Below are positions 1-6,866 of a DNA stretch of 6,866 nucleotides, piece after piece (positions within the stretch are counted from its first letter, which is position 1; each line of letters starts with the position of its first letter). The stretch comes from a virus. Taxonomy: Duplodnaviria > Heunggongvirae > Uroviricota > Caudoviricetes. The notes beneath the pieces are model-generated. The model was not told where the DNA came from. It did no database searches and saw only the letters and a list, made by a program, of their open reading frames with translations. The stretch lies in IMG/VR virus record IMGVR_UViG_3300049597_000266; one strand, 5' to 3'. Both the position numbers and the translations under genes were made by a program.

Positions 1-318
1 AACCCGCTGGCAAACCGCAAGCAGAATCCTGCCAATCTCTTTACCGCTGCAGAGGAAACGGTGATCGAACTGGAGGAAGTCCAGGACGACAAACCGTCCC
101 TGTTTTCCCGCGTCACGGCGCTGTTCACCAAAAAAGAGCAGTCCGATGACGCCCGGTTCTCTGATGTGCATAAGGCCGTGGAGCTGGTCGCCACTGAGCA
201 GCAAAACCTGAGCGCGCGAACCGAAAAATCTCTGTCTGAGCAGGAAGAACGCCTGTCTGAACTGGAGTCTGCTCTGCAGAAGCAGCAACGGGCAATGCCT
301 GTAGTTCCACACTGGTGA
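1..318 (+). CDS. Partial CDS (5' end outside window) for a hydrophilic, coiled-coil-like protein of unknown function, upstream of the lysis genes
   Basis: Frame 1 is open from nt 1 to TGA 316-318 (106 codons). Translation reads ...NPLANRKQNPANLFTAAEETVIELEEVQDDKPSLFSRVTALF...EERLSELESALQKQQRAMPVVPHW. It is E/Q/K-rich with no hydrophobic segment. GC content and codon usage match the flanking phage genes. No family recognised by eye. The ORF-track start at GTG 61 is arbitrary because the frame continues to the window edge. Confidence 0.35.
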   Translation, partial: NPLANRKQNPANLFTAAEETVIELEEVQDDKPSLFSRVTALFTKKEQSDDARFSDVHKAVELVATEQQNLSARTEKSLSEQEERLSELESALQKQQRAMPVVPHW

Positions 319-458
319 AATTGCTCAATCAGCGGCGCTGGGCAGATGCGTGCCGACAGTTGCCGCGCTGGGTTTATGTAAAAGGTGTGTTTAATCAGGG
401 GCTGGATAACCGCCGTGCGCGGGAGATGGCCTGGTGCCTTAAAGGAGCTGGACTATGA
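261..458 (+). pseudogene. C-terminal remnant of a GH24 (T4/P21-type) phage endolysin; N-terminal catalytic part absent
   Basis: Frame 3 between TGA 258-260 and TGA 456-458 translates to TGSCSAEAATGNACSSTLVKLLNQRRWADACRQLPRWVYVKGVFNQGLDNRRAREMAWCLKGAGL. This matches my recollection of the C-terminal motif of P21 R / RrrD-type lysozymes (GN..STLL.K.NQ....AC.QL.RW.Y..GK...GL..RR..E..CL). The stop overlaps the lysB ATG (ATGA), the usual endolysin-spanin junction. Upstream of 258 all three + frames lack lysozyme-like sequence and frames 2 and 3 contain stops (209-211, 237-239, 258-260). No ATG lies within the remnant. Confidence 0.5.
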
Positions 459-883
459 CGCGTGCGCTGGCAGTAGTGGTGGCGCTGGCACTCGTTGCGC
501 TGGGCTGGCAGTCGTGGCGGCTTAACAGCGCCAGCCACACCATCGAAACGCAGCGCGCGGCGCTGAAAAGTAAAGCGCAGGAACTGACGAAGAAAAACAG
601 CCAGCTTATCAGCCTGTCCATTCTGACTGAAACCAATAACCGGGAGCAGGCGCGGCTCTATGCCGAAGCAGAACAGACCAGTGCACTGCTGAGACAACGA
701 CAACACCGGATCGAGGAACTGAAACGTGAGAACGAGGATTTACGCCGCTGGGCTGATACTCCTTTGCCTGCTGACATTATCCGGCTGCGGGAACGTCCGG
801 CACTCACCGGAGGTACAGCTTACCGTCAGTGGTTGTCCGCGAGTGACGCCGTGTCGGCTGGATCAGGCAACGCCGCGCACTAA
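455..883 (+). CDS. lysB: LysB, Rz-like inner-membrane spanin (i-spanin)
   Basis: 142-aa ORF with ATG 455 preceded by AAGGAG (442-447). N-terminal hydrophobic helix (ALAVVVALALVALGW), then a coiled-coil-like region (QRAALKSKAQELTKKNSQL...RQRQHRIEELKRENEDLRRW). The C-terminal ENEDLRRWADTPLPADIIRLRERPA resembles my recollection of P2 LysB. Position directly after the endolysin and before lysC/R fits. Confidence 0.85.
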   Translation: MTRALAVVVALALVALGWQSWRLNSASHTIETQRAALKSKAQELTKKNSQLISLSILTETNNREQARLYAEAEQTSALLRQRQHRIEELKRENEDLRRWADTPLPADIIRLRERPALTGGTAYRQWLSASDAVSAGSGNAAH

Positions 884-1016
884 CGGTGATCTGAACGCGT
901 TGCTGGATGAAACGGAGGCCGCCTGGGCGGTCTGTGCAGACAAAGTGGACATGATTATTGCGTGTCAGGAGCGAAACAGTGAACAAACCACAATCCCTGC
1001 GCCACGCCCTCAATAA
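726..1016 (+). CDS. lysC: LysC, Rz1-like outer-membrane lipoprotein spanin (o-spanin), in the +1 frame overlapping lysB
   Basis: 96-aa ORF beginning inside lysB in another frame and extending 133 nt past the lysB stop (overlapped architecture, as in P2). N-terminus MRTRIYAAGLILLCLLTLSGC has a positively charged start, hydrophobic core and lipobox L-S-G-C. Mature part is Pro/Cys-containing with a proline-rich C-terminus (TTIPAPRPQ). GAGGAA lies 8 nt upstream of GTG 726; the exact start codon is uncertain. Confidence 0.8.
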   Translation: MRTRIYAAGLILLCLLTLSGCGNVRHSPEVQLTVSGCPRVTPCRLDQATPRTNGDLNALLDETEAAWAVCADKVDMIIACQERNSEQTTIPAPRPQ

Positions 1017-1410
1017 AGCGGTGCCTTATGTCCGCAATAACCCGGACAAACTGCATCTGTTTGTGGATAACGGTTCGCTGGTTGCCACGGGGGCCAGCTC
1101 CATGTCGTGGGAGTACCGTTACACCCTGAACGCGGTGATTGAGGATTTCAGCGGCGACCAGAATCTGCTGATGGCCCCGGTTTTGCTGTGGCTGCGGGAT
1201 AACCAGCCCGATGCCATCAATAACCCGGCGTTACGGGAAAAACTATTTACCTTTGAGGTGGATATTCTGCGCAACGATGTCTGTGATATCAGCCTTAACC
1301 TGCATCTGACGGAACGTGTGCTGGTCAGCACTGACGGCAGTGTGTCGAGCGTTGAAGCTGTAGCAGAACCCGATGAACCTGAAGAAATGTGGACGGTGAA
1401 ACGTGGCTGA
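979..1410 (+). CDS. R: Tail completion protein R (P2 gpR-like)
   Basis: ORF reading MNKPQSLRHALNKAVPYVRNNPDKLHLFVDNGSLVATGASSMSWEYRYTLNAVIEDFSGDQNLLMAPVLLWLRDNQPD... resembles my recollection of P2 gpR. Start chosen as GTG 979 with AGGAG at 967-971; the ORF-track start at TTG 958 is an alternative. The start overlaps the lysC 3' end, and the TGA stop at 1408-1410 overlaps the S start. Confidence 0.8.
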   Translation: MNKPQSLRHALNKAVPYVRNNPDKLHLFVDNGSLVATGASSMSWEYRYTLNAVIEDFSGDQNLLMAPVLLWLRDNQPDAINNPALREKLFTFEVDILRNDVCDISLNLHLTERVLVSTDGSVSSVEAVAEPDEPEEMWTVKRG

Positions 1411-1849
1411 ACTGCAGACGGTGGACGACTGGCTTAGTGCCTTACTGGCGAATCTGGAACCAGTCGCAAGAAGCCGCATGATGCGCCAGCTGGCGCAGGA
1501 ACTGCGCCGGACACAGCAGCAGAATATCAGGATGCAGCGCAATCCAGATGGCAGCAGTTATGAACCGCGCAAGGTCACGGCGCGCAGTAAAAAAGGCCGC
1601 ATCAAACGTCAGATGTTTGCAAAGCTGCGCACCACCAAATACCTGAAAACCGCCGCCAGCGCCGACTCTGCCAGCGTACAGTTTGAAAGTAAGGTGCAGC
1701 GCATTGCCCGCGTTCACCATTATGGCCTGCGCGATCGCGTCAGCCGCAAAGGACCGGAAGTGCGTTACGCAGAGCGTCGTTTGTTGGGTCTTAATGGTGA
1801 GTCTTACGTTCTAACTCGTGATATATTGAATAGATTCCTTCTGTCTTGA
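1403..1849 (+). CDS. S: Tail completion protein S (P2 gpS-like); last ~17 codons lie in the AT-rich island (probably a chimeric C-terminus)
   Basis: 148-aa ORF with motif LEPVARSRMMRQLAQELRRTQQQNIRMQRNPDGSSYEPRK matching my recollection of the P2 gpS N-terminal region. GTG 1403 overlaps the R stop by 8 nt. From about nt 1798 the codons become AT-rich and rare for enterobacteria (cta, ata, aga) up to the stop at 1847-1849. Confidence 0.8.
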   Translation: MAELQTVDDWLSALLANLEPVARSRMMRQLAQELRRTQQQNIRMQRNPDGSSYEPRKVTARSKKGRIKRQMFAKLRTTKYLKTAASADSASVQFESKVQRIARVHHYGLRDRVSRKGPEVRYAERRLLGLNGESYVLTRDILNRFLLS

Positions 1850-2597
1850 ATTCACCATATGCCCAATGAATTGCATTTTTTTGTTCAGTCAGAATATATT
1901 TCCTAACTTTTTTAGAATAGTGAATGGTCAGTATAAAACCCAAAGAAATCCATAATAGAATAAATATGGTTGTTGGGGCAAAGGAATAGATAAAGAATTT
2001 GTCTTTAACGAAATTCTTGACTTCTTCATCAATGTAAGTATTCCCTTCATCAGAGGTTAGTAGTTTACAAAGAATTTCTTTATGTTCTATAGTTAATGAT
2101 TTGTACTTCTCTGTACTGGCAGAGGATGACTCTTCGCAATCATCTTTTGATATTTCCCAATCAGGAGTGGTTAATATTGTAGCTGCAGTCGCCAGTTTTT
2201 TTGACATATAAAATGATTCACCGGACTTTATCCAATAAAGCAATGTGCTATTTGGTGGGGTTCTAATGGCTTGGATGAAAACTGGACCAAAAATATAAAT
2301 TGCACACAAAAAAAGAAGTGAAAAGAGAACCGTGATTGATTTTTCAGCCCATGTGATAGTAGGCAGCCTTTTTAATGATATTCGTATAAGAAAAAAATTT
2401 AATATAAACGCAGGTATTCCTGATTTTTTCAAAATTACATCATGAGATTTTCTATATTTGAATAGTGCTCTTATAACTATCGTCACCAAAGTTATAACAG
2501 CTCCAATAATGGAAATCCATGCGGCAAGTGCCGCTGCCGGGGTGTTTAAAAATTCAGCATTAAATATATTAGAACTTATTGGATTCATAACACTCAT
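1791..2597 (-). CDS. Hypothetical four-helix integral membrane protein (268 aa) encoded by the AT-rich moron; function unknown
   Basis: An 807-nt ORF uninterrupted in ~30% GC DNA, where stops are frequent by chance. ATG at 2597 (minus) is preceded by GGTGGATAA (RBS-like). Four hydrophobic segments: AAALAAWISIIGAVITLVTIVIRALF, IPAFILNFFLIRISL (weaker), ITVLFSLLFLCAIYIFGPVFIQAI and FFIYSFAPTTIFILLWISLGFILTIHY. A hydrophilic, acidic ~90-aa domain sits between helices 3 and 4. Its 3' end overlaps the S 3' end convergently by 59 nt. No homology recognised. Confidence 0.65.
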   Translation of the reverse strand: MSVMNPISSNIFNAEFLNTPAAALAAWISIIGAVITLVTIVIRALFKYRKSHDVILKKSGIPAFILNFFLIRISLKRLPTITWAEKSITVLFSLLFLCAIYIFGPVFIQAIRTPPNSTLLYWIKSGESFYMSKKLATAATILTTPDWEISKDDCEESSSASTEKYKSLTIEHKEILCKLLTSDEGNTYIDEEVKNFVKDKFFIYSFAPTTIFILLWISLGFILTIHYSKKVRKYILTEQKNAIHWAYGEFKTEGIYSIYHELERKTHH

Positions 2598-2700
2598 TTA
2601 TCCACCTATTGGTTGTTTTTTATCCTTTTATCAATTTGTACCATCGATACCACAATTTGCAAGAAGTTATAAACAAGTTTTCAGCTGTCATCATATATCT
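1795..2700. other. AT-rich island (~30% GC against ~55% in flanks) at the S-V junction; probable horizontally acquired moron
   Basis: Abrupt compositional shift visible by eye. One 60-nt sample (1861-1920) counts 17 G+C (28%). The island carries one long ORF on the minus strand and is bounded by the tail genes S (left) and V (right). No terminal inverted repeats or target-site duplications were seen. Confidence 0.7.
2637..2654 (+). promoter_or_regulatory. TGT-N12-ACA dyad, candidate Ogr/Delta-type activator site of the P2 late promoter for the V operon
   Basis: Sequence TGT ACCATCGATACC ACA at 2637-2654 (palindromic core ATCGAT), flanked by direct repeats CAATTTG (2632-2638 and 2653-2659). 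It lies about 55 nt upstream of the V ATG, in the intergenic region between the divergent moron ORF and V. P2 late promoters are known to carry TGT-N12-ACA centred near -55. The -10 and transcription start are not resolved; TATAAA at 2669-2674 and TATAT at 2694-2698 are candidates. Confidence 0.35.
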
Positions 2701-3279
2701 ATGAACGCACAACTAACCGAAATCATGCGCCTTATCACCAATCTGATCCGCATAGGTGTAGTCACCGAAGTGGACCGGGAAAACTGGCTTTGTCGGGTGA
2801 AAACGGGCGACCTTGAAACCAACTGGATCAGCTGGCTGACGCTGCGCGCGGGTAATGCCCGCACATGGTGGCGACCATCGGAAGGTGAGCAGGTGGTGCT
2901 GCTGAGTCTGGGCGGCAATCTGGAGACTGCCTTTGCGCTGCCCGCTGTCTATTCGAATCAGTTCGCACCACCGTCGACGTCGGCGGACGCCTGCGTGACA
3001 GAACATCCTGACGGTGGCTGGTTTGAATACGAACCCGCCACCGGGCGCTGGTATGTCAGGGGCATCAAATCAATGGTCATTGAGGCCGCTGATAACATCA
3101 CCATGAAAACCAGTGAGTTTGTACTGGAGGCTGACCGCACGCGCATTAACAGCGAAGTGGTGATCAATGGTGGCGTTACCCAGGGCGGCGGAGCGATGAG
3201 TTCTAACGGGATCGTGGTTGATGCGCATCAGCATACTGGCGTCCTGAAAGGCGGCGATACAACCGGAGGCCCGGTATGA
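2701..3279 (+). CDS. V: Baseplate assembly / spike protein V (P2 gpV-like)
   Basis: 192-aa ORF, MNAQLTEIMRLITNLIRIGVVTEVDRENWLCRVKTGDLETNWISWLTLRAGNARTWWRPSEGEQVVLLSLGGNLETAFALPAVYS..., matching my recollection of P2 gpV (..IRTGIIVETD..CRVQTG..WLTHRAG..RTWWAPSVGEQV..GGELDTAF.LP). Start placed at ATG 2701, the first ATG after the AT-rich intergenic region; ATG 2725 is an alternative. No clear Shine-Dalgarno. The ORF-track extension back to 2458 is rejected. Confidence 0.85.
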   Translation: MNAQLTEIMRLITNLIRIGVVTEVDRENWLCRVKTGDLETNWISWLTLRAGNARTWWRPSEGEQVVLLSLGGNLETAFALPAVYSNQFAPPSTSADACVTEHPDGGWFEYEPATGRWYVRGIKSMVIEAADNITMKTSEFVLEADRTRINSEVVINGGVTQGGGAMSSNGIVVDAHQHTGVLKGGDTTGGPV

Positions 3280-3635
3280 CGCTTTATAGCGGGATGAACA
3301 ATACCAGCGGCAAAGTCATTACTGATATTGACCATCTGCGCCAGTCGGTGCGGGACATTCTGCTGACGCCGCAGGGTAGCCGCATTGCTCGCCGTGAATA
3401 TGGTTCCCTGCTGTCGGCACTGATAGACCAGCCACAAAATCCGGCGTTACGCCTGCAGGTCATGTCGGCAGTGTATGTGGCGCTGAGTCGCTGGGAGCCA
3501 CGGCTGACGCTGGATTCCATCACCATTAACAGCAATTTTGACGGTTCAATGGTGGTGGGACTGACCGGGCGGCGTAATAACGGTGTGCCTGTTTCCCTTT
3601 CCGTATCAACAGGAGCAGAGAATGGCAGTGATTGA
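3276..3635 (+). CDS. W: Baseplate wedge protein W (P2 gpW, T4 gp25-like)
   Basis: 119-aa ORF with ATG overlapping the V stop (ATGA) and GGAGG 8 nt upstream. Sequence ...RQSVRDILLTPQGSRIARREYGSLLSALIDQPQNPALRLQVMSAVYVALSRWEPRLTL... is typical of the GPW/gp25 family. Confidence 0.9.
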   Translation: MTLYSGMNNTSGKVITDIDHLRQSVRDILLTPQGSRIARREYGSLLSALIDQPQNPALRLQVMSAVYVALSRWEPRLTLDSITINSNFDGSMVVGLTGRRNNGVPVSLSVSTGAENGSD

Positions 3636-4530
3636 CCTTTCGCAGTTGCCTGCGCCGCAGATTGTCGATGTGCCGGACTTTGAGACGTTGCTTGCCGAAC
3701 GCAAGGCCGAATTTGTTGCGCTTCATCCGAAAGATGAGCAGGAAGCCGTGATCCGCACGCTGGAACTGGAATCTGAACCCGTCACCAAATTGCTGCAGGA
3801 GAATGCTTACCGTGAGTTGCTTCTGCGCCAGCGCATTAACGAAGCCGCGCAGGCGGTGATGGTGGCTTACGCGATGGGCGGCGATCTTGACCAGCTCGCT
3901 GCCAACTACAACGTGAAACGCCTGACGGTGACGCCTGCTGATAATGACGCTGTGCCGCCCGTTGCGGCTGTGATGGAAAGCGATGAAGCGTTACGCCTGC
4001 GTGTGCCTGCAGCCTTTGAAGGGCTTTCAGTTGCGGGGCCAACTGCAGCCTATGAATTTCATGCCCGAAGCGCCGACGGTCGGGTGGCGGATGCCAGTGC
4101 AACCAGTCCGGCACCTGCAGAGGTGGTACTGACTGTCCTTAGCCGTGAAGGCGACGGAACAGCAGAAAAAGACCTGCTGGATGTGGTGGAAAAAGCCCTG
4201 AACAGTGAGAACGTCCGCCCGGTGGCTGACCGTCTGACGGTTCGCAGCGCAGAAATCATCCCGTATCGCGTGGAAGCCACCATTTTTCTCTATCCGGGAC
4301 CGGAAGCAGAGCCGGTAATGGCAGCGGCAAAAGCCAGCCTGCAGAAGTACATCGCCAGTCAGACGCGTCTTGGTCGGGATATTCGCCGTAGCGCCATCTT
4401 TGCCGCCTTGCATGTTGAGGGTGTGCAGCGTGTGGAGCTGGCTTCTCCTCTGGCGGATGTGGTCCTGAACAAAACACAGGCGGCATCATGTACGCAGTGG
4501 AGCGTAACCAACGGAGGAACGGATGAATAG
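3622..4530 (+). CDS. J: Baseplate assembly protein J (P2 gpJ-like)
   Basis: 302-aa ORF from ATG 3622 with AGGAG at 3611-3615. Sequence MAVIDLSQLPAPQIVDVPDFETLLAERKAEFVALHPKDEQEAVIRTLELESEPVTKLLQENAYRELLLRQRINEAAQAVM...RLGRDIRRSAIFAALHVEGVQRVELASPLADVVL matches my recollection of P2 gpJ. Overlaps the W 3' end by 14 nt. The ORF-track start at 3583 is an in-frame upstream extension. Confidence 0.9.
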   Translation: MAVIDLSQLPAPQIVDVPDFETLLAERKAEFVALHPKDEQEAVIRTLELESEPVTKLLQENAYRELLLRQRINEAAQAVMVAYAMGGDLDQLAANYNVKRLTVTPADNDAVPPVAAVMESDEALRLRVPAAFEGLSVAGPTAAYEFHARSADGRVADASATSPAPAEVVLTVLSREGDGTAEKDLLDVVEKALNSENVRPVADRLTVRSAEIIPYRVEATIFLYPGPEAEPVMAAAKASLQKYIASQTRLGRDIRRSAIFAALHVEGVQRVELASPLADVVLNKTQAASCTQWSVTNGGTDE

Positions 4531-5043
4531 TCTGCTGCCACCGGGTTCAACACCACTGGAGCGCCGACTGGCGCAAACCTGCAGCGGGATTTCTGATCTG
4601 CAGGTGCCGCTTCGTGACTTGTGGAATCCGGCAACCTGTCCGGTCAGTTTCCTGCCTTATCTCGCCTGGGCGTTCTCTGTGGATCGCTGGGACGAGGACT
4701 GGACAGAAAGTGTCAAGCGCCAGGTGGTGAAGGATGCTTTTTATATTCATCAGCATAAAGGGACCACCAGTGCCGTGCGGCGGGTGGTGGAGCCGTTCGG
4801 CTTTCTGATCCGCATTATTGAGTGGTGGCAGACCGGATAAGCGATGCCAAACCATGCAGCCGTCACATGATCGGCATGTCCATCAACCTGCAGACCAGCG
4901 GCCCGCATTGGGTGGGAGCCGCCAGCTATCTTGGCGAAGAAATCACGATCTATCCGTATATCAACGAAACAATTATTTCCGGTGGCACCGCGCATGAAGG
5001 CGGGGCGGTCCATGTTATTGACACAATGAGAGTGAATCCATGA
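4523..5043 (+). pseudogene. I: Baseplate protein I (P2 gpI-like), interrupted by a frameshift near 4819-4840
   Basis: The N-terminal 105-aa ORF (4523-4840, frame 2) carries typical gpI motifs (LWNPATCPVSFLPYLAWAFSVDRWDEDW...VVEPFGFLIRIIEWW). The downstream ORF (4822-5043, frame 1) resembles the gpI C-terminus (DAKPCSRHMIGMSI...EEITIYPY). The two overlap by 19 nt, and the combined span (521 nt) is 1 nt short of a single ~173-codon gene. The ATG overlaps the J stop; the second ORF's stop overlaps the H ATG. Confidence 0.6.
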
Positions 5044-6662
5044 GCACAAAATTTTATACCCTGCTGACGGATATTGGCGCGGCGAAACTTGCCAGCGCCG
5101 CCGCGCTCGGTGTGCCTTTAAAAATTACCCATATGGCGGTCGGCGATGGCGGCGGAGTATTGCCAACGCCGGATGCAAAGCAGACTGCACTGGTGAATGA
5201 GAAACGCCGGGCTGCGCTGAATATGCTCTATATCGACCCGCAGAACAGTAGCCAGATTATTGCTGAACAGGTAATCCCTGAAAATGAGGGCGGTTGGTGG
5301 ATACGTGAAGTGGGCCTGTTTGATGAGTCCGGGGCATTGATTGCCGTGGGAAACTGCCCGGAAAGCTATAAGCCGCAACTGGCTGAAGGCAGTGGGCGTA
5401 CCCAGACCGTGCGCATGGTGCTGATTACCAGCAGCACGGACAATATCACCCTGAAAATCGACCCTGCCGTCGTGCTGGCAACCCGCAAGTATGTGGATGA
5501 CAAGGTACTGGAGCTGAAGGTGTTCGTGGATGATAAGATGGCAAAACATCTTGCCGCACCGGACCCGCATTCACAGTATGCACCCAAAGAAAGCCCGACA
5601 TTGACCGGAACACCCAAAGCGCCAACGCCAGCGGAGGGGAATAACACCACGCAGATTGCGACCACCGCGTTTGTTCAGGCGGCACTGATGGCCCTTATTA
5701 ATGGTGCGCCAGCCACACTGGATACGATGAAAGAAATTGCCGCTGCCATTAATAATGACCCGAAATTCAGTACCACCATTAACAATGCGCTGGCACTGAA
5801 AGCGCCGCTGTTAAGTCCGGCATTCACCGGAACGCCAACAGCCCCCACTGCCGCACAGTCGGTTAACAATACACAGATTGCCACCACGGCTTTTGTGAAA
5901 TCGGCAATTGCGGCAATGGTGGGGTCTGCACCTGCTGCACTGGATACACTGAACGAACTGGCTGCGGCGCTGGGGAATGACCCGAACTTTGCCACGACAA
6001 TGCTTAATGCGCTGGCAGGTAAACAACCGTTGGACAATACGCTGACTAATTTGAGTGGAAAGGATGTAGCTGGTCTTCTCGCATACCTTGGTTTGGGAGA
6101 TGCATTAATTGGTGATGAATGTAAAATTGCAGGGTTTGACAGTAGTAACGTCAATGCCCCGTATATGCGATTCGCCAGAACAAATACAGTAGTTCGTCTG
6201 GCAACAAAAGACTATGCGCAACCAAAAGACCAGACACTGACAGATTTAAGCGGTAAGGATAAGGCTGAACTAAGAACTTATCTTGATCTGAAAAGTGCGG
6301 CTCAAAGGGATGTTGGCTCAGGGGCAAATCAGATTCCGGATATGAATGACTTCACATCCAGCCTGACCAGCCCTGGCTGGCAAAAATTACCGTCAGGTCT
6401 GATTATTCAGTGGGGGGCAGCCAATCCATCATCAACTGGAGAGATCTTTATTACGTTTCCTGTCGCGTTCTCTGCATACCCGATGTATGTGGGATTTGGT
6501 CCTCAGCAGGCATCGCTTCCTAACGTAGTTCAGTCGCCAGTAATTTCAGCGCCAACGATAACTAATTTAGGATGCGGCGTCCGAAATCTGATGATTCCAA
6601 CAGCGGGCGGAGCACCAGTAGCCAGCATGAGTTCATTTTTCTGGATTGCGGTAGGGAAATAA
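5040..6662 (+). CDS. H: Tail fibre protein H (P2 gpH-like N-terminus with a divergent C-terminal receptor-binding region)
   Basis: 540-aa ORF. N-terminus MSTKFYTLLTDIGAAKLASAAALGVPLKITHMAVGDGGGVLP...GGWWIREVGLFDESGALIAVGNCPESYKPQLAEGSGRTQTVRMVLITSS matches my recollection of the conserved baseplate-attachment domain of P2 gpH. The region SPAFTGTPTAPT...NTQIATTAFV...LDTLNELAAALGNDPNFATTMLNALAGKQP also matches P2 H. The C-terminal third (from about 6030) is divergent and lower in GC. Confidence 0.9.
   Translation: MSTKFYTLLTDIGAAKLASAAALGVPLKITHMAVGDGGGVLPTPDAKQTALVNEKRRAALNMLYIDPQNSSQIIAEQVIPENEGGWWIREVGLFDESGALIAVGNCPESYKPQLAEGSGRTQTVRMVLITSSTDNITLKIDPAVVLATRKYVDDKVLELKVFVDDKMAKHLAAPDPHSQYAPKESPTLTGTPKAPTPAEGNNTTQIATTAFVQAALMALINGAPATLDTMKEIAAAINNDPKFSTTINNALALKAPLLSPAFTGTPTAPTAAQSVNNTQIATTAFVKSAIAAMVGSAPAALDTLNELAAALGNDPNFATTMLNALAGKQPLDNTLTNLSGKDVAGLLAYLGLGDALIGDECKIAGFDSSNVNAPYMRFARTNTVVRLATKDYAQPKDQTLTDLSGKDKAELRTYLDLKSAAQRDVGSGANQIPDMNDFTSSLTSPGWQKLPSGLIIQWGAANPSSTGEIFITFPVAFSAYPMYVGFGPQQASLPNVVQSPVISAPTITNLGCGVRNLMIPTAGGAPVASMSSFFWIAVGK
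5592..6029 (+). repeat. Two tandem ~72-aa (216-nt) tail-fibre repeat units within H
   Basis: Residues 185-256 (SPTLTGTPKAPTPAEGNNTTQIATTAFVQAALMALINGAPATLDTMKEIAAAINNDPKFSTTINNALALKAP) and 259-330 (SPAFTGTPTAPTAAQSVNNTQIATTAFVKSAIAAMVGSAPAALDTLNELAAALGNDPNFATTMLNALAGKQP) align over their full length with about 60% identity; nt 5592-5807 and 5814-6029. Confidence 0.8.
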
Positions 6663-6663
6663 T

Positions 6664-6866
6664 ATGTACAAATACAGTGCTAAAAAAAATGCGTTTTATC
6701 TGGCTGGTAATGAGGCCGTATACCGCGATTCCGGCACATGGCCTGATGATGCAAAAGATATTGAAACCCGACGTGCCGAGTCGTTTATGGCGACACCTCC
6801 GCAGGGTAAGCGACGTATTGCAGGTGCAGACGGAATGCCTGCGTGGGCAGATATTCCTTCACCCAC
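6664..6866 (+). CDS. Partial CDS (3' end outside window), putative tail-fibre assembly chaperone (gene G position)
   Basis: ATG at 6664, 1 nt after the H stop; frame open to the window end (67 codons): MYKYSAKKNAFYLAGNEAVYRDSGTWPDDAKDIETRRAESFMATPPQGKRRIAGADGMPAWADIPSP. Position immediately downstream of the tail fibre gene and the N-terminal NAFY...Y...G.WPDDA pattern suggest a Tfa-type chaperone. Assignment is mainly by synteny. Confidence 0.5.
   Translation, partial: MYKYSAKKNAFYLAGNEAVYRDSGTWPDDAKDIETRRAESFMATPPQGKRRIAGADGMPAWADIPSP

What the first reader, a model, noticed from the sequence alone, without database searches (positions are those of the whole stretch)
4815..4845. Frameshift splitting baseplate gene I into two overlapping ORFs
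The gpI-like reading frame changes from frame 2 to frame 1 between the frame-1 stop at 4819-4821 and the frame-2 stop at 4838-4840. Both halves resemble gpI and the total span is one nucleotide short of a single ORF, consistent with a 1-nt deletion (or 2-nt insertion). There is no homopolymer or obvious slippery heptamer at the site. gpI is an essential baseplate component in P2, so if real, this prophage cannot make functional tails. That would make it a cryptic prophage, which raises the interest of any retained cargo such as the S-V moron.
Basis: partly seen in the sequence, partly recalled or inferred. Interest (0 to 1): 0.55.

Follow-up and report, generated by a model that had tools for sequence, protein, structure and literature searches.

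The report
85-bp deletion in prophage gene I
The split baseplate gene is real in this sequence, but it comes from an 85-base deletion (not a 1-base slip) in the long-known, already dead P2-like prophage of laboratory E. coli B/BL21, is recorded only in one short contig of a fragmented draft assembly, and is biologically ordinary.

Summary
The frame change at 4819-4840 is present exactly as described. The cause is not a 1-nt indel. The window is colinear with the defective P2-like prophage of E. coli B/BL21(DE3), but it lacks 85 bp of gene I (reference 606 nt/201 aa; window 521 nt). The deletion removes codons E106-L133 plus one base, has only a 2-bp GA microhomology, and places a TAA exactly at the junction. 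The lost segment is conserved in all relatives, including P2 and pyocin Tri2 (PA0619). No slippery site exists and no relative has a two-ORF arrangement, so this is a null allele, not recoding.

The prophage was already cryptic. In every B-lineage genome it lacks N, M, L, X, Y, most of K, FI, FII, E, T, U and most of D. One of these old junctions (gpO::K) lies in the window at 286/287.

The deletion junction is absent from 5,426 complete E. coli genomes, 50,697 phage records, GTDB species representatives, metagenome contigs and IMG/VR. The window is the entire 6,866-bp contig JBFDSW010001022.1 of an unannotated draft with more than 1,000 contigs. It carries three more private substitutions in DNA that is invariant across 44 B-lineage genomes. 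A real deletion and an assembly error cannot be told apart without reads. Interest is low.

The parts
4523..4840 (+). 5' fragment of gene I (gpI / Tri2-family baseplate wedge protein): native residues 1-105, then stop TAA 4838-4840 created at the deletion junction
   Evidence: ORF list. Pfam PF09684 Tail_P2_I, E 1.6e-43, profile 1-100/139. 100% identical to BL21 WP_001086815.1 residues 1-105.
4836..4838 (+). Deletion junction. 85 bp of the reference gene (L001 5816-5900 register; GAGACACCGGG...GAGCGACTGA) are missing. The GA at 4836-4837 is a 2-bp microhomology present at both breakpoints.
   Evidence: blastn of window against BL21(DE3): 1-4837 = L001 979-5815 and 4836-6866 = L001 5899-7929. 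Base-level breakpoints. Multiple alignment with BL21, phage KP12 and P2.
4837..5043 (+). 3' fragment of gene I, now in frame 1: native residues 134-201 plus stop TGA 5041-5043. The mechanical ORF starts at GTG 4822 with five alien codons (MVADR). A public gene caller called 4867-5043.
   Evidence: No Pfam match on its own. No Shine-Dalgarno-like sequence seen by eye in the 20 nt upstream of the candidate starts 4822, 4825, 4867 and 4876.
3622..4530 (+). Gene J (baseplate wedge, Tri1/gp6-like), intact. Its end overlaps the start of gene I by 8 nt.
   Evidence: Baseplate_J_N/M/C.
5040..6662 (+). Gene H (tail fibre), intact. Its ATG overlaps the native gene I stop (ATGA), so the premature stop leaves about 200 untranslated nt in front of it.
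1..458 (+). Older decay of the same prophage: 3' part of the gpO scaffold gene (to 318) fused to the last third of lysozyme gene K (288-458). Homology to an intact relative resumes at 287. Genes N, M, L, X, Y and the 5' part of K are missing.
   Evidence: BL21 annotation ('glycoside hydrolase... missing N-terminus'). blastn against intact relative L003: window 287-1801 = L003 1644-3158, inside its lysozyme gene 1300-1815.
1419..1419 (+). Private substitution A>C (gpS K6T)
   Evidence: SNP-centred 55-mer absent from 5,426 complete E. coli genomes.
2054..2088 (-). Two private substitutions in the minus-strand DUF6216 gene: 2054 T>A (T182S) and 2088 G>T (synonymous I170)
   Evidence: SNP-centred 55-mers absent from all complete E. 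coli genomes.

Best explanation
The window is the defective P2-like prophage of laboratory E. coli B/BL21. In this one contig, gene I has lost 85 bp, corresponding to nt 316-400 of the 606-nt gene. Gene I encodes the gp7/Tri2-like subunit of the (gpJ)2-gpI baseplate wedge. The loss deletes conserved residues E106-L133 and shifts the frame by -1. Translation stops at a TAA formed exactly at the junction and yields only residues 1-105. The remaining 68 codons lie out of frame with no evident ribosome-binding site. The result is a plain null allele (pseudogene), not a recoding site and not a two-subunit gpI. It has no consequence for phage production, because this prophage had already lost its capsid, holin, sheath, tube, tape-measure and replication functions through at least three older internal deletions. 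Shown here: the deletion, its borders, conservation of the lost segment, absence of the allele elsewhere, and prior defectiveness of the prophage. Inferred: no translation of the 3' fragment and no phenotype. Unresolved: whether the 85-bp gap exists in the cells' DNA or arose during sequencing or assembly of a low-quality contig. I put this at roughly even odds.
For: Colinearity with BL21(DE3) apart from one 85-bp gap and 3 substitutions. Every one of the best 30 phage rows and 30 E. coli rows spans 606 nt in two pieces. The reference gene is annotated as an intact 'phage tail protein I' of 201 aa. The lost stretch is present and conserved in BL21, Klebsiella phage KP12 and P2 itself (PGTFRLDIGV..GITE..Y.E.ERLI), and it aligns to pyocin R2 Tri2 PA0619, PDB 6U5B (E 6e-46). 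The Pfam domain is cut at position 100 of 139. (PA0618)2-PA0619 is the counterpart of the T4 (gp6)2-gp7 wedge (PMC10457771). No slippery heptamer is present. The prophage is defective in all B-lineage genomes, with partial CII, a partial replication endonuclease, a gpO::lysozyme fusion, a partial invertase and a partial gpD. The gpO::K junction lies inside the window.
Against: The allele is found in no other record, so its reality rests on a single contig. No reads were available. Expression of either fragment was not measured. A 2-bp microhomology is weak support for any particular deletion mechanism.
Confidence: 0.9

Rival explanations
1. The 85-bp gap, and the three private substitutions, are not in the organism's DNA. 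On this view they are sequencing or assembly errors in a low-coverage contig, for example E. coli BL21-type contaminant DNA in another organism's draft, two contigs abutted across a small coverage gap, or a chimeric or erroneous single long read. The true sequence would be the intact 606-nt gene. This rival concerns only the origin of the lesion and is compatible with the anatomy given in the best explanation.
For: The window is byte-identical to the whole of contig JBFDSW010001022.1 (6,866 bp) of GCA_043537265.1, whose contig numbering exceeds 1,000. The proteins of that contig have no NCBI accession or name, so the assembly is unannotated. The gpO::K junction occurs only in the 44 B-lineage complete genomes, all mutually identical over window 1-4837, yet the window differs from all of them at 3 sites in 6.9 kb. 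The junction is absent everywhere else. Both contig ends fall inside genes.
Against: There are no small indels anywhere in 6.9 kb, so this is not raw noisy long-read sequence. No repeat longer than 2 bp and no significant hairpin bridges the breakpoints, so a k-mer collapse is not expected. The flanks are 100% identical right up to the junction.
Confidence: 0.5
2. One reading: a 1-nt deletion (or 2-nt insertion) between 4819 and 4840 splits an otherwise full-length gene I, and this lesion is what turned a functional prophage into a cryptic one.
For: 521 nt is one short of a multiple of three and is close to the 531 nt of P2 gene I.
Against: Alignment with BL21, KP12 and P2 shows one contiguous 85-nt gap and no 1-nt gap. 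28 conserved residues are missing. The prophage is already defective when gene I is intact.
Confidence: 0.01
3. Programmed -1 ribosomal frameshifting, or a naturally split two-subunit gpI, produces functional protein from the two ORFs.
For: The two ORFs overlap by 19 nt in the -1 direction. P2 itself uses a -1 frameshift in E/E'.
Against: There is no X XXY YYZ heptamer or homopolymer in the overlap. No phage or E. coli record has this arrangement. Any fused product would still lack 28 conserved core residues of the Tail_P2_I domain. No Shine-Dalgarno-like sequence precedes ORF2.
Confidence: 0.01

Closest known systems
Gene I of the E. coli B / BL21(DE3) defective P2-like prophage (ECD_RS04490, WP_001086815.1, NC_012971.2 887846-888451)
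   Same: 100% identical on both sides of the junction, with the same neighbours (V, W, J upstream; H, G downstream) and the same older gpO::K deletion junction.
   Different: The reference is an intact 606-nt/201-aa gene. The window lacks 85 bp and is frameshifted. The window also differs at three further bases.
Bacteriophage P2 gpI (NP_046774.1, 176 aa), essential baseplate protein
   Same: Homologous (57% identity to the B-type protein), same position J-I-H, and the deleted segment is conserved in P2.
   Different: P2 gpI is 25 aa shorter at the C-terminus. This is why the truncated 521-nt span looked nearly full length.
R-type pyocin Tri2 (PA0619; PDB 6U5B/6U5K), the gp7-like member of the (PA0618)2-PA0619 wedge triplex
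   Same: Clear sequence homology of the intact allele over residues 3-174 (E 6e-46). The deleted residues 106-133 align to a conserved PA0619 stretch. Wedge role as described in PMC10457771.
   Different: The window allele retains only the N-terminal 105 residues in frame. No structure was modelled here.
P2 E/E' programmed -1 frameshift (tail chaperone)
   Same: Two overlapping ORFs related by a -1 shift in a P2-type tail operon.
   Different: E/E' has a conserved slippery site and is conserved in relatives. The gene I split has neither and is explained by a deletion.

Membership tests
gpI / Tail_P2_I (PF09684) / Tri2, gp7-like baseplate wedge subunit | Significant match to the Tail_P2_I profile | tested here: met
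   ORF 4523-4837: E 1.6e-43, 148 bits against a cut-off of 20.6.
gpI / Tail_P2_I (PF09684) / Tri2, gp7-like baseplate wedge subunit | Complete domain in one reading frame (profile 1-139) | tested here: not met
   Only profile positions 1-100 are present. The intact BL21 allele covers 1-138. 28 residues are deleted and the remainder is out of frame. It is a pseudogene of the family, not a functional member.
gpI / Tail_P2_I (PF09684) / Tri2, gp7-like baseplate wedge subunit | Synteny V-W-J-I-H-G of P2-type tail operons | tested here: met
Programmed -1 ribosomal frameshift site | Slippery heptamer X XXY YYZ in the 0 frame within the overlap | tested here: not met
   The overlap reads GAG TGG TGG CAG ACC GGA TAA.
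Programmed -1 ribosomal frameshift site | Two-ORF arrangement conserved in related functional phages | tested here: not met
   All listed relatives have a single 606-nt (or, in P2, 531-nt) ORF. The junction 40-mer is absent from phage records and complete E. coli genomes.
   One contiguous 85-nt gap.
Cryptic (defective) prophage: E. coli B P2-like remnant | Loss of genes essential for particle formation and replication, independent of gene I | tested here: met
   The BL21 locus has gpO fused to a lysozyme fragment (no N, M, L, X, Y). There is no FI, FII, E, T or U, and only partial D, partial CII, partial replication endonuclease and partial invertase (compared with P2). The gpO::K junction is in the window at 286/287.
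Cryptic (defective) prophage: E. coli B P2-like remnant | Identity of the window with that remnant | tested here: met
   99.94-100% identity, colinear over 6,866 nt. The full 1-4837 match is found only in 44 B-lineage genomes.

The most novel reading that the evidence does not exclude
The deletion is real, and the retained 105-aa N-terminal fragment of gpI is still expressed from the V operon. That fragment is the part that, in Tri2/gp7-like proteins, joins the wedge core bundle. It could then act as a dominant-negative decoy that poisons baseplate assembly of superinfecting P2-like phages, making it a defence by-product of prophage decay. Nothing here supports this reading. It is only not excluded.
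Probability: 0.02. Interest if true: 0.4.

Novelty: already known. Interest (0 to 1): 0.07.

Why it matters
It matters little biologically. This is one more lesion, or a sequencing error, in a prophage remnant that has been known to be defective since the E. coli B genomes were compared. It does not change the status of the prophage or of its cargo. That cargo is the DUF6216 gene between S and V inside the window and, outside the window, the retron.

The practical value is cautionary in two ways. A span that is 'one nucleotide short' can hide a much larger out-of-frame deletion when the gene family varies in length. And a short orphan contig of BL21-type DNA in an unannotated, highly fragmented assembly should be treated as possible contamination or low-quality sequence before any biology is read from its private mutations.

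Tried and rejected
1. I looked for the deletion allele elsewhere. The junction 30-mer was absent from GTDB species representatives and metagenome contigs. A 25-mer was absent from IMG/VR. A 40-mer searched by megablast was absent from 5,426 complete E. coli genomes and 50,697 phage records.

2. An exact look-up of the 105-aa product returned five contigs. All of them end in ...CCGGAG(A), which is the wild-type allele cut by a contig end, not the deletion. That coincidence is a consequence of exact-sequence look-up. The 73-aa ORF2 product is on record nowhere.

3. I tested programmed frameshifting and a split gene, and rejected both. There is no slippery site, no conservation and no RBS.

4. 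I looked for repeats or a hairpin that could explain the deletion or an assembly collapse. Nothing longer than 2 bp lies at the breakpoints, and the fold z-score is -0.88.

5. Literature searches for the E. coli B P2 remnant and for the assembly prefix JBFDSW gave only a passing mention of P2-like elements and retron Ec86 in REL606 (PMC3032704) and no hit for the assembly. My recollection that the defective P2-related prophage of E. coli B has long been known (P2 Hy dis; Studier et al. 2009) rests on my own knowledge, not on a retrieved paper.

6. I did not run structure prediction or the large protein searches, because the answer did not depend on them.

Full report
OBSERVATION. The window has a frame-2 ORF at 4523-4840 (105 aa, stop TAA 4838-4840). 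It also has a frame-1 ORF open from GTG 4822, just after TGA 4819-4821, to TGA 5041-5043 (73 aa). The first ORF matches Pfam Tail_P2_I at E 1.6e-43, but only over profile positions 1-100 of 139. The second ORF has no Pfam match on its own. The overlap reads GAG TGG TGG CAG ACC GGA TAA in the 0 frame, with no homopolymer and no slippery heptamer. The span 4523-5043 is 521 nt.

WHAT IT REALLY IS. A similarity search with 4523-5043 found hundreds of P2-like phages and prophages. In every listed row the 521-nt query mapped in two pieces onto a 606-nt stretch of the record. The best matches, 100% identical in both pieces, are E. coli B-lineage genomes such as BL21(DE3) and REL606, where the stretch is an intact 'phage tail protein I' of 201 aa.

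Direct alignment of the whole window to BL21(DE3) gives window 1-4837 = L001 979-5815 with 3 mismatches, and 4836-6866 = L001 5899-7929 with none. The window thus lacks 85 bp (GAGACACCGGGCACG...CTTGAGCGACTGA), with a GA dinucleotide shared by both breakpoints. Since 85 = 3x28+1, the loss removes residues E106-L133 and shifts the frame by -1.

The TAA that ends ORF1 is made of the T-AA of the native codons ...CTG ATA AGC... and sits directly at the junction. ORF1 is therefore exactly native residues 1-105. ORF2 is five alien codons (MVADR) followed by native residues 134-201.

The missing stretch is present and conserved in BL21, in Klebsiella phage KP12 and in P2 itself, at both DNA and protein level (PGTFRLDIGV..GITE..Y.E.ERLI). 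The window has therefore lost it; the others have not gained it.

The B-type protein is 201 aa, with a 25-residue C-terminal extension over P2, which hid the missing 28 residues.

WHAT THE PROTEIN IS. The intact allele aligns over residues 3-174 with Tri2 (PA0619) of the R-type pyocin baseplate, PDB 6U5B/6U5K, at E 6e-46. The deleted residues fall in a conserved block of that alignment. (PA0618)2-PA0619 is described as the small counterpart of the T4 (gp6)2-gp7 wedge module (PMC10457771). gpI is thus the gp7-like wedge subunit that pairs with two copies of gpJ.

An allele that stops after residue 105 and lacks the last quarter of the conserved domain is a null allele. The 3' fragment has no Shine-Dalgarno-like sequence before any candidate start (4822, 4825, 4867, 4876). 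Even a hypothetical -1 shift would give a protein without 28 conserved residues. Native gene I ends in ATGA, overlapping the start of tail-fibre gene H. The premature stop leaves about 200 untranslated nucleotides ahead of H, so reduced coupling or polarity on H is a reasonable inference that was not tested.

CONTEXT: THE PROPHAGE WAS ALREADY DEAD. In BL21(DE3) the element runs from an integrase at about 872.5 kb to ogr at about 892.6 kb. It contains a partial CII gene abutting a partial replication endonuclease. It also contains a retron (effector plus reverse transcriptase), portal, terminase and a gpO scaffold gene fused to the last third of a lysozyme gene. The late genes that follow are LysB/LysC, R, S, a minus-strand DUF6216 gene, V, W, J, I, H and G. 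An inverted alternative fibre segment comes next, then a truncated invertase abutting a truncated gpD, then ogr.

Compared with P2, it lacks N, M, L, X, Y, most of K, FI, FII, E/E', T, U and most of D. One of these old junctions lies in the window. Homology to an intact relative (L003) begins at window 287, inside that relative's lysozyme gene, and window 1-318 is the end of the gpO gene.

Gene I inactivation therefore cannot be what made the prophage cryptic. From my own knowledge (not retrieved here), a defective P2-related prophage in E. coli B has been known since the P2 Hy dis work and was described in the REL606/BL21 genome comparisons. PMC3032704 mentions the retron-Ec86-bearing element of REL606.

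IS THE DELETION REAL? The allele is private.
- A 40-mer centred on the junction, which cannot seed a megablast hit unless the junction is present, finds nothing in 5,426 complete E. coli genomes or 50,697 phage records.
- Exact junction patterns find nothing in GTDB species representatives, metagenome contigs or IMG/VR.
- The 73-aa ORF2 product is on record nowhere.
- Five contigs encode exactly the 105-aa product, but they are wild-type genes cut by contig ends (...CCGGAG/…GGAGA).

An exact look-up of the window's variant gpS and DUF6216 proteins led to a single record. This is contig JBFDSW010001022.1 of NCBI assembly GCA_043537265.1, which is 6,866 bp long and byte-identical to the window. 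Its proteins carry no NCBI accession or name. The assembly is thus unannotated and has more than a thousand contigs.

The gpO::K junction is found only in the 44 B-lineage complete genomes, which are all identical to one another across window 1-4837. Yet the window differs from all of them at three bases: 1419 A>C (gpS K6T), 2054 T>A (DUF6216 T182S) and 2088 G>T (synonymous). None of these three exists in any complete E. coli genome.

Three private substitutions plus a private deletion in 6.9 kb of laboratory-strain DNA point to one of two sources. One is a poor-quality or low-coverage contig, possibly BL21-type contaminant DNA in another organism's draft. The other is a heavily mutated derivative. 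Against a simple artefact, there are no small indels at all. No repeat beyond 2 bp and no significant hairpin bridges the breakpoints, which argues against a k-mer collapse. I cannot resolve this without reads and put it near even odds. Either way the biology is ordinary.

ALTERNATIVES REJECTED. A 1-nt indel is excluded. Programmed frameshifting or a split functional gene is rejected for three reasons. There is no slippery site, the arrangement is not conserved in relatives, and conserved residues are missing.

VERDICT. The feature is an 85-bp out-of-frame deletion, real or artefactual, in gene I of the well-known defective P2-like prophage of E. coli B/BL21. It is recorded only in one short contig of a fragmented, unannotated draft. 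It is an already known kind of thing, of low interest (0.07).

Noticed in passing
window 1-6866: The window is byte-identical to an entire public contig (JBFDSW010001022.1, 6,866 bp, NCBI assembly GCA_043537265.1). That assembly is unannotated and has more than 1,000 contigs. The DNA is of laboratory E. coli B/BL21 type, so contamination of another organism's assembly is a possibility.
   Followed up: partly
window 1419, 2054, 2088: Three substitutions, all transversions (A>C, T>A, G>T), occur in none of 5,426 complete E. coli genomes. The 44 B-lineage genomes are invariant across window 1-4837, which contains all three sites. This is an unusually high private-mutation density for laboratory-strain DNA.
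   Followed up: yes
window 1-458 (junction at 286/287): An older internal deletion of the prophage fuses the gpO scaffold gene to the last third of lysozyme gene K. It removes N, M, L, X, Y and the 5' part of K. This junction is found only in B-lineage genomes.
   Followed up: yes
window 1791-2597 (- strand): This is the S-V 'moron' slot. It holds a DUF6216-family protein of 268 aa on the opposite strand, at 32% GC against 52% for the window, and its 3' end overlaps gene S convergently by 59 nt. P2 has an unrelated Orf30 in this slot (no significant similarity), and a close relative (L003) has an FRG-domain protein there. It is a cargo hot spot with interchangeable contents.
   Followed up: partly
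window 5592-5794 and 5814-6029: Tail-fibre gene H contains an internal tandem duplication. Both segments match the same stretch of P2 gene H (L008 8500-8715), and the translated repeats read NNTQIATTAFV...DPxF(S/A)TT.
   Followed up: no
L003-L007 (contig ends), equivalent to window 4837/4838: Five public contigs end at the same 1-2 nucleotides as the left breakpoint of the deletion (…CAGACCGGAG). They carry the wild-type allele. The coincidence follows from looking up the exact 105-aa sequence and is not independent evidence of fragility at this site.
   Followed up: yes
L011 9890-11938 (BL21(DE3) 877,889-879,937, outside the window): The same defective prophage carries a retron between its early region and the portal gene, made of an St85-family effector and a reverse transcriptase. 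This is the retron Ec86 of E. coli B mentioned in PMC3032704.
   Followed up: no
window 6664-6866: The contig ends inside the tail-fibre assembly gene (G-like). In BL21 an invertible alternative fibre segment with a truncated invertase follows, so the fibre-switching system is frozen in this remnant.
   Followed up: no
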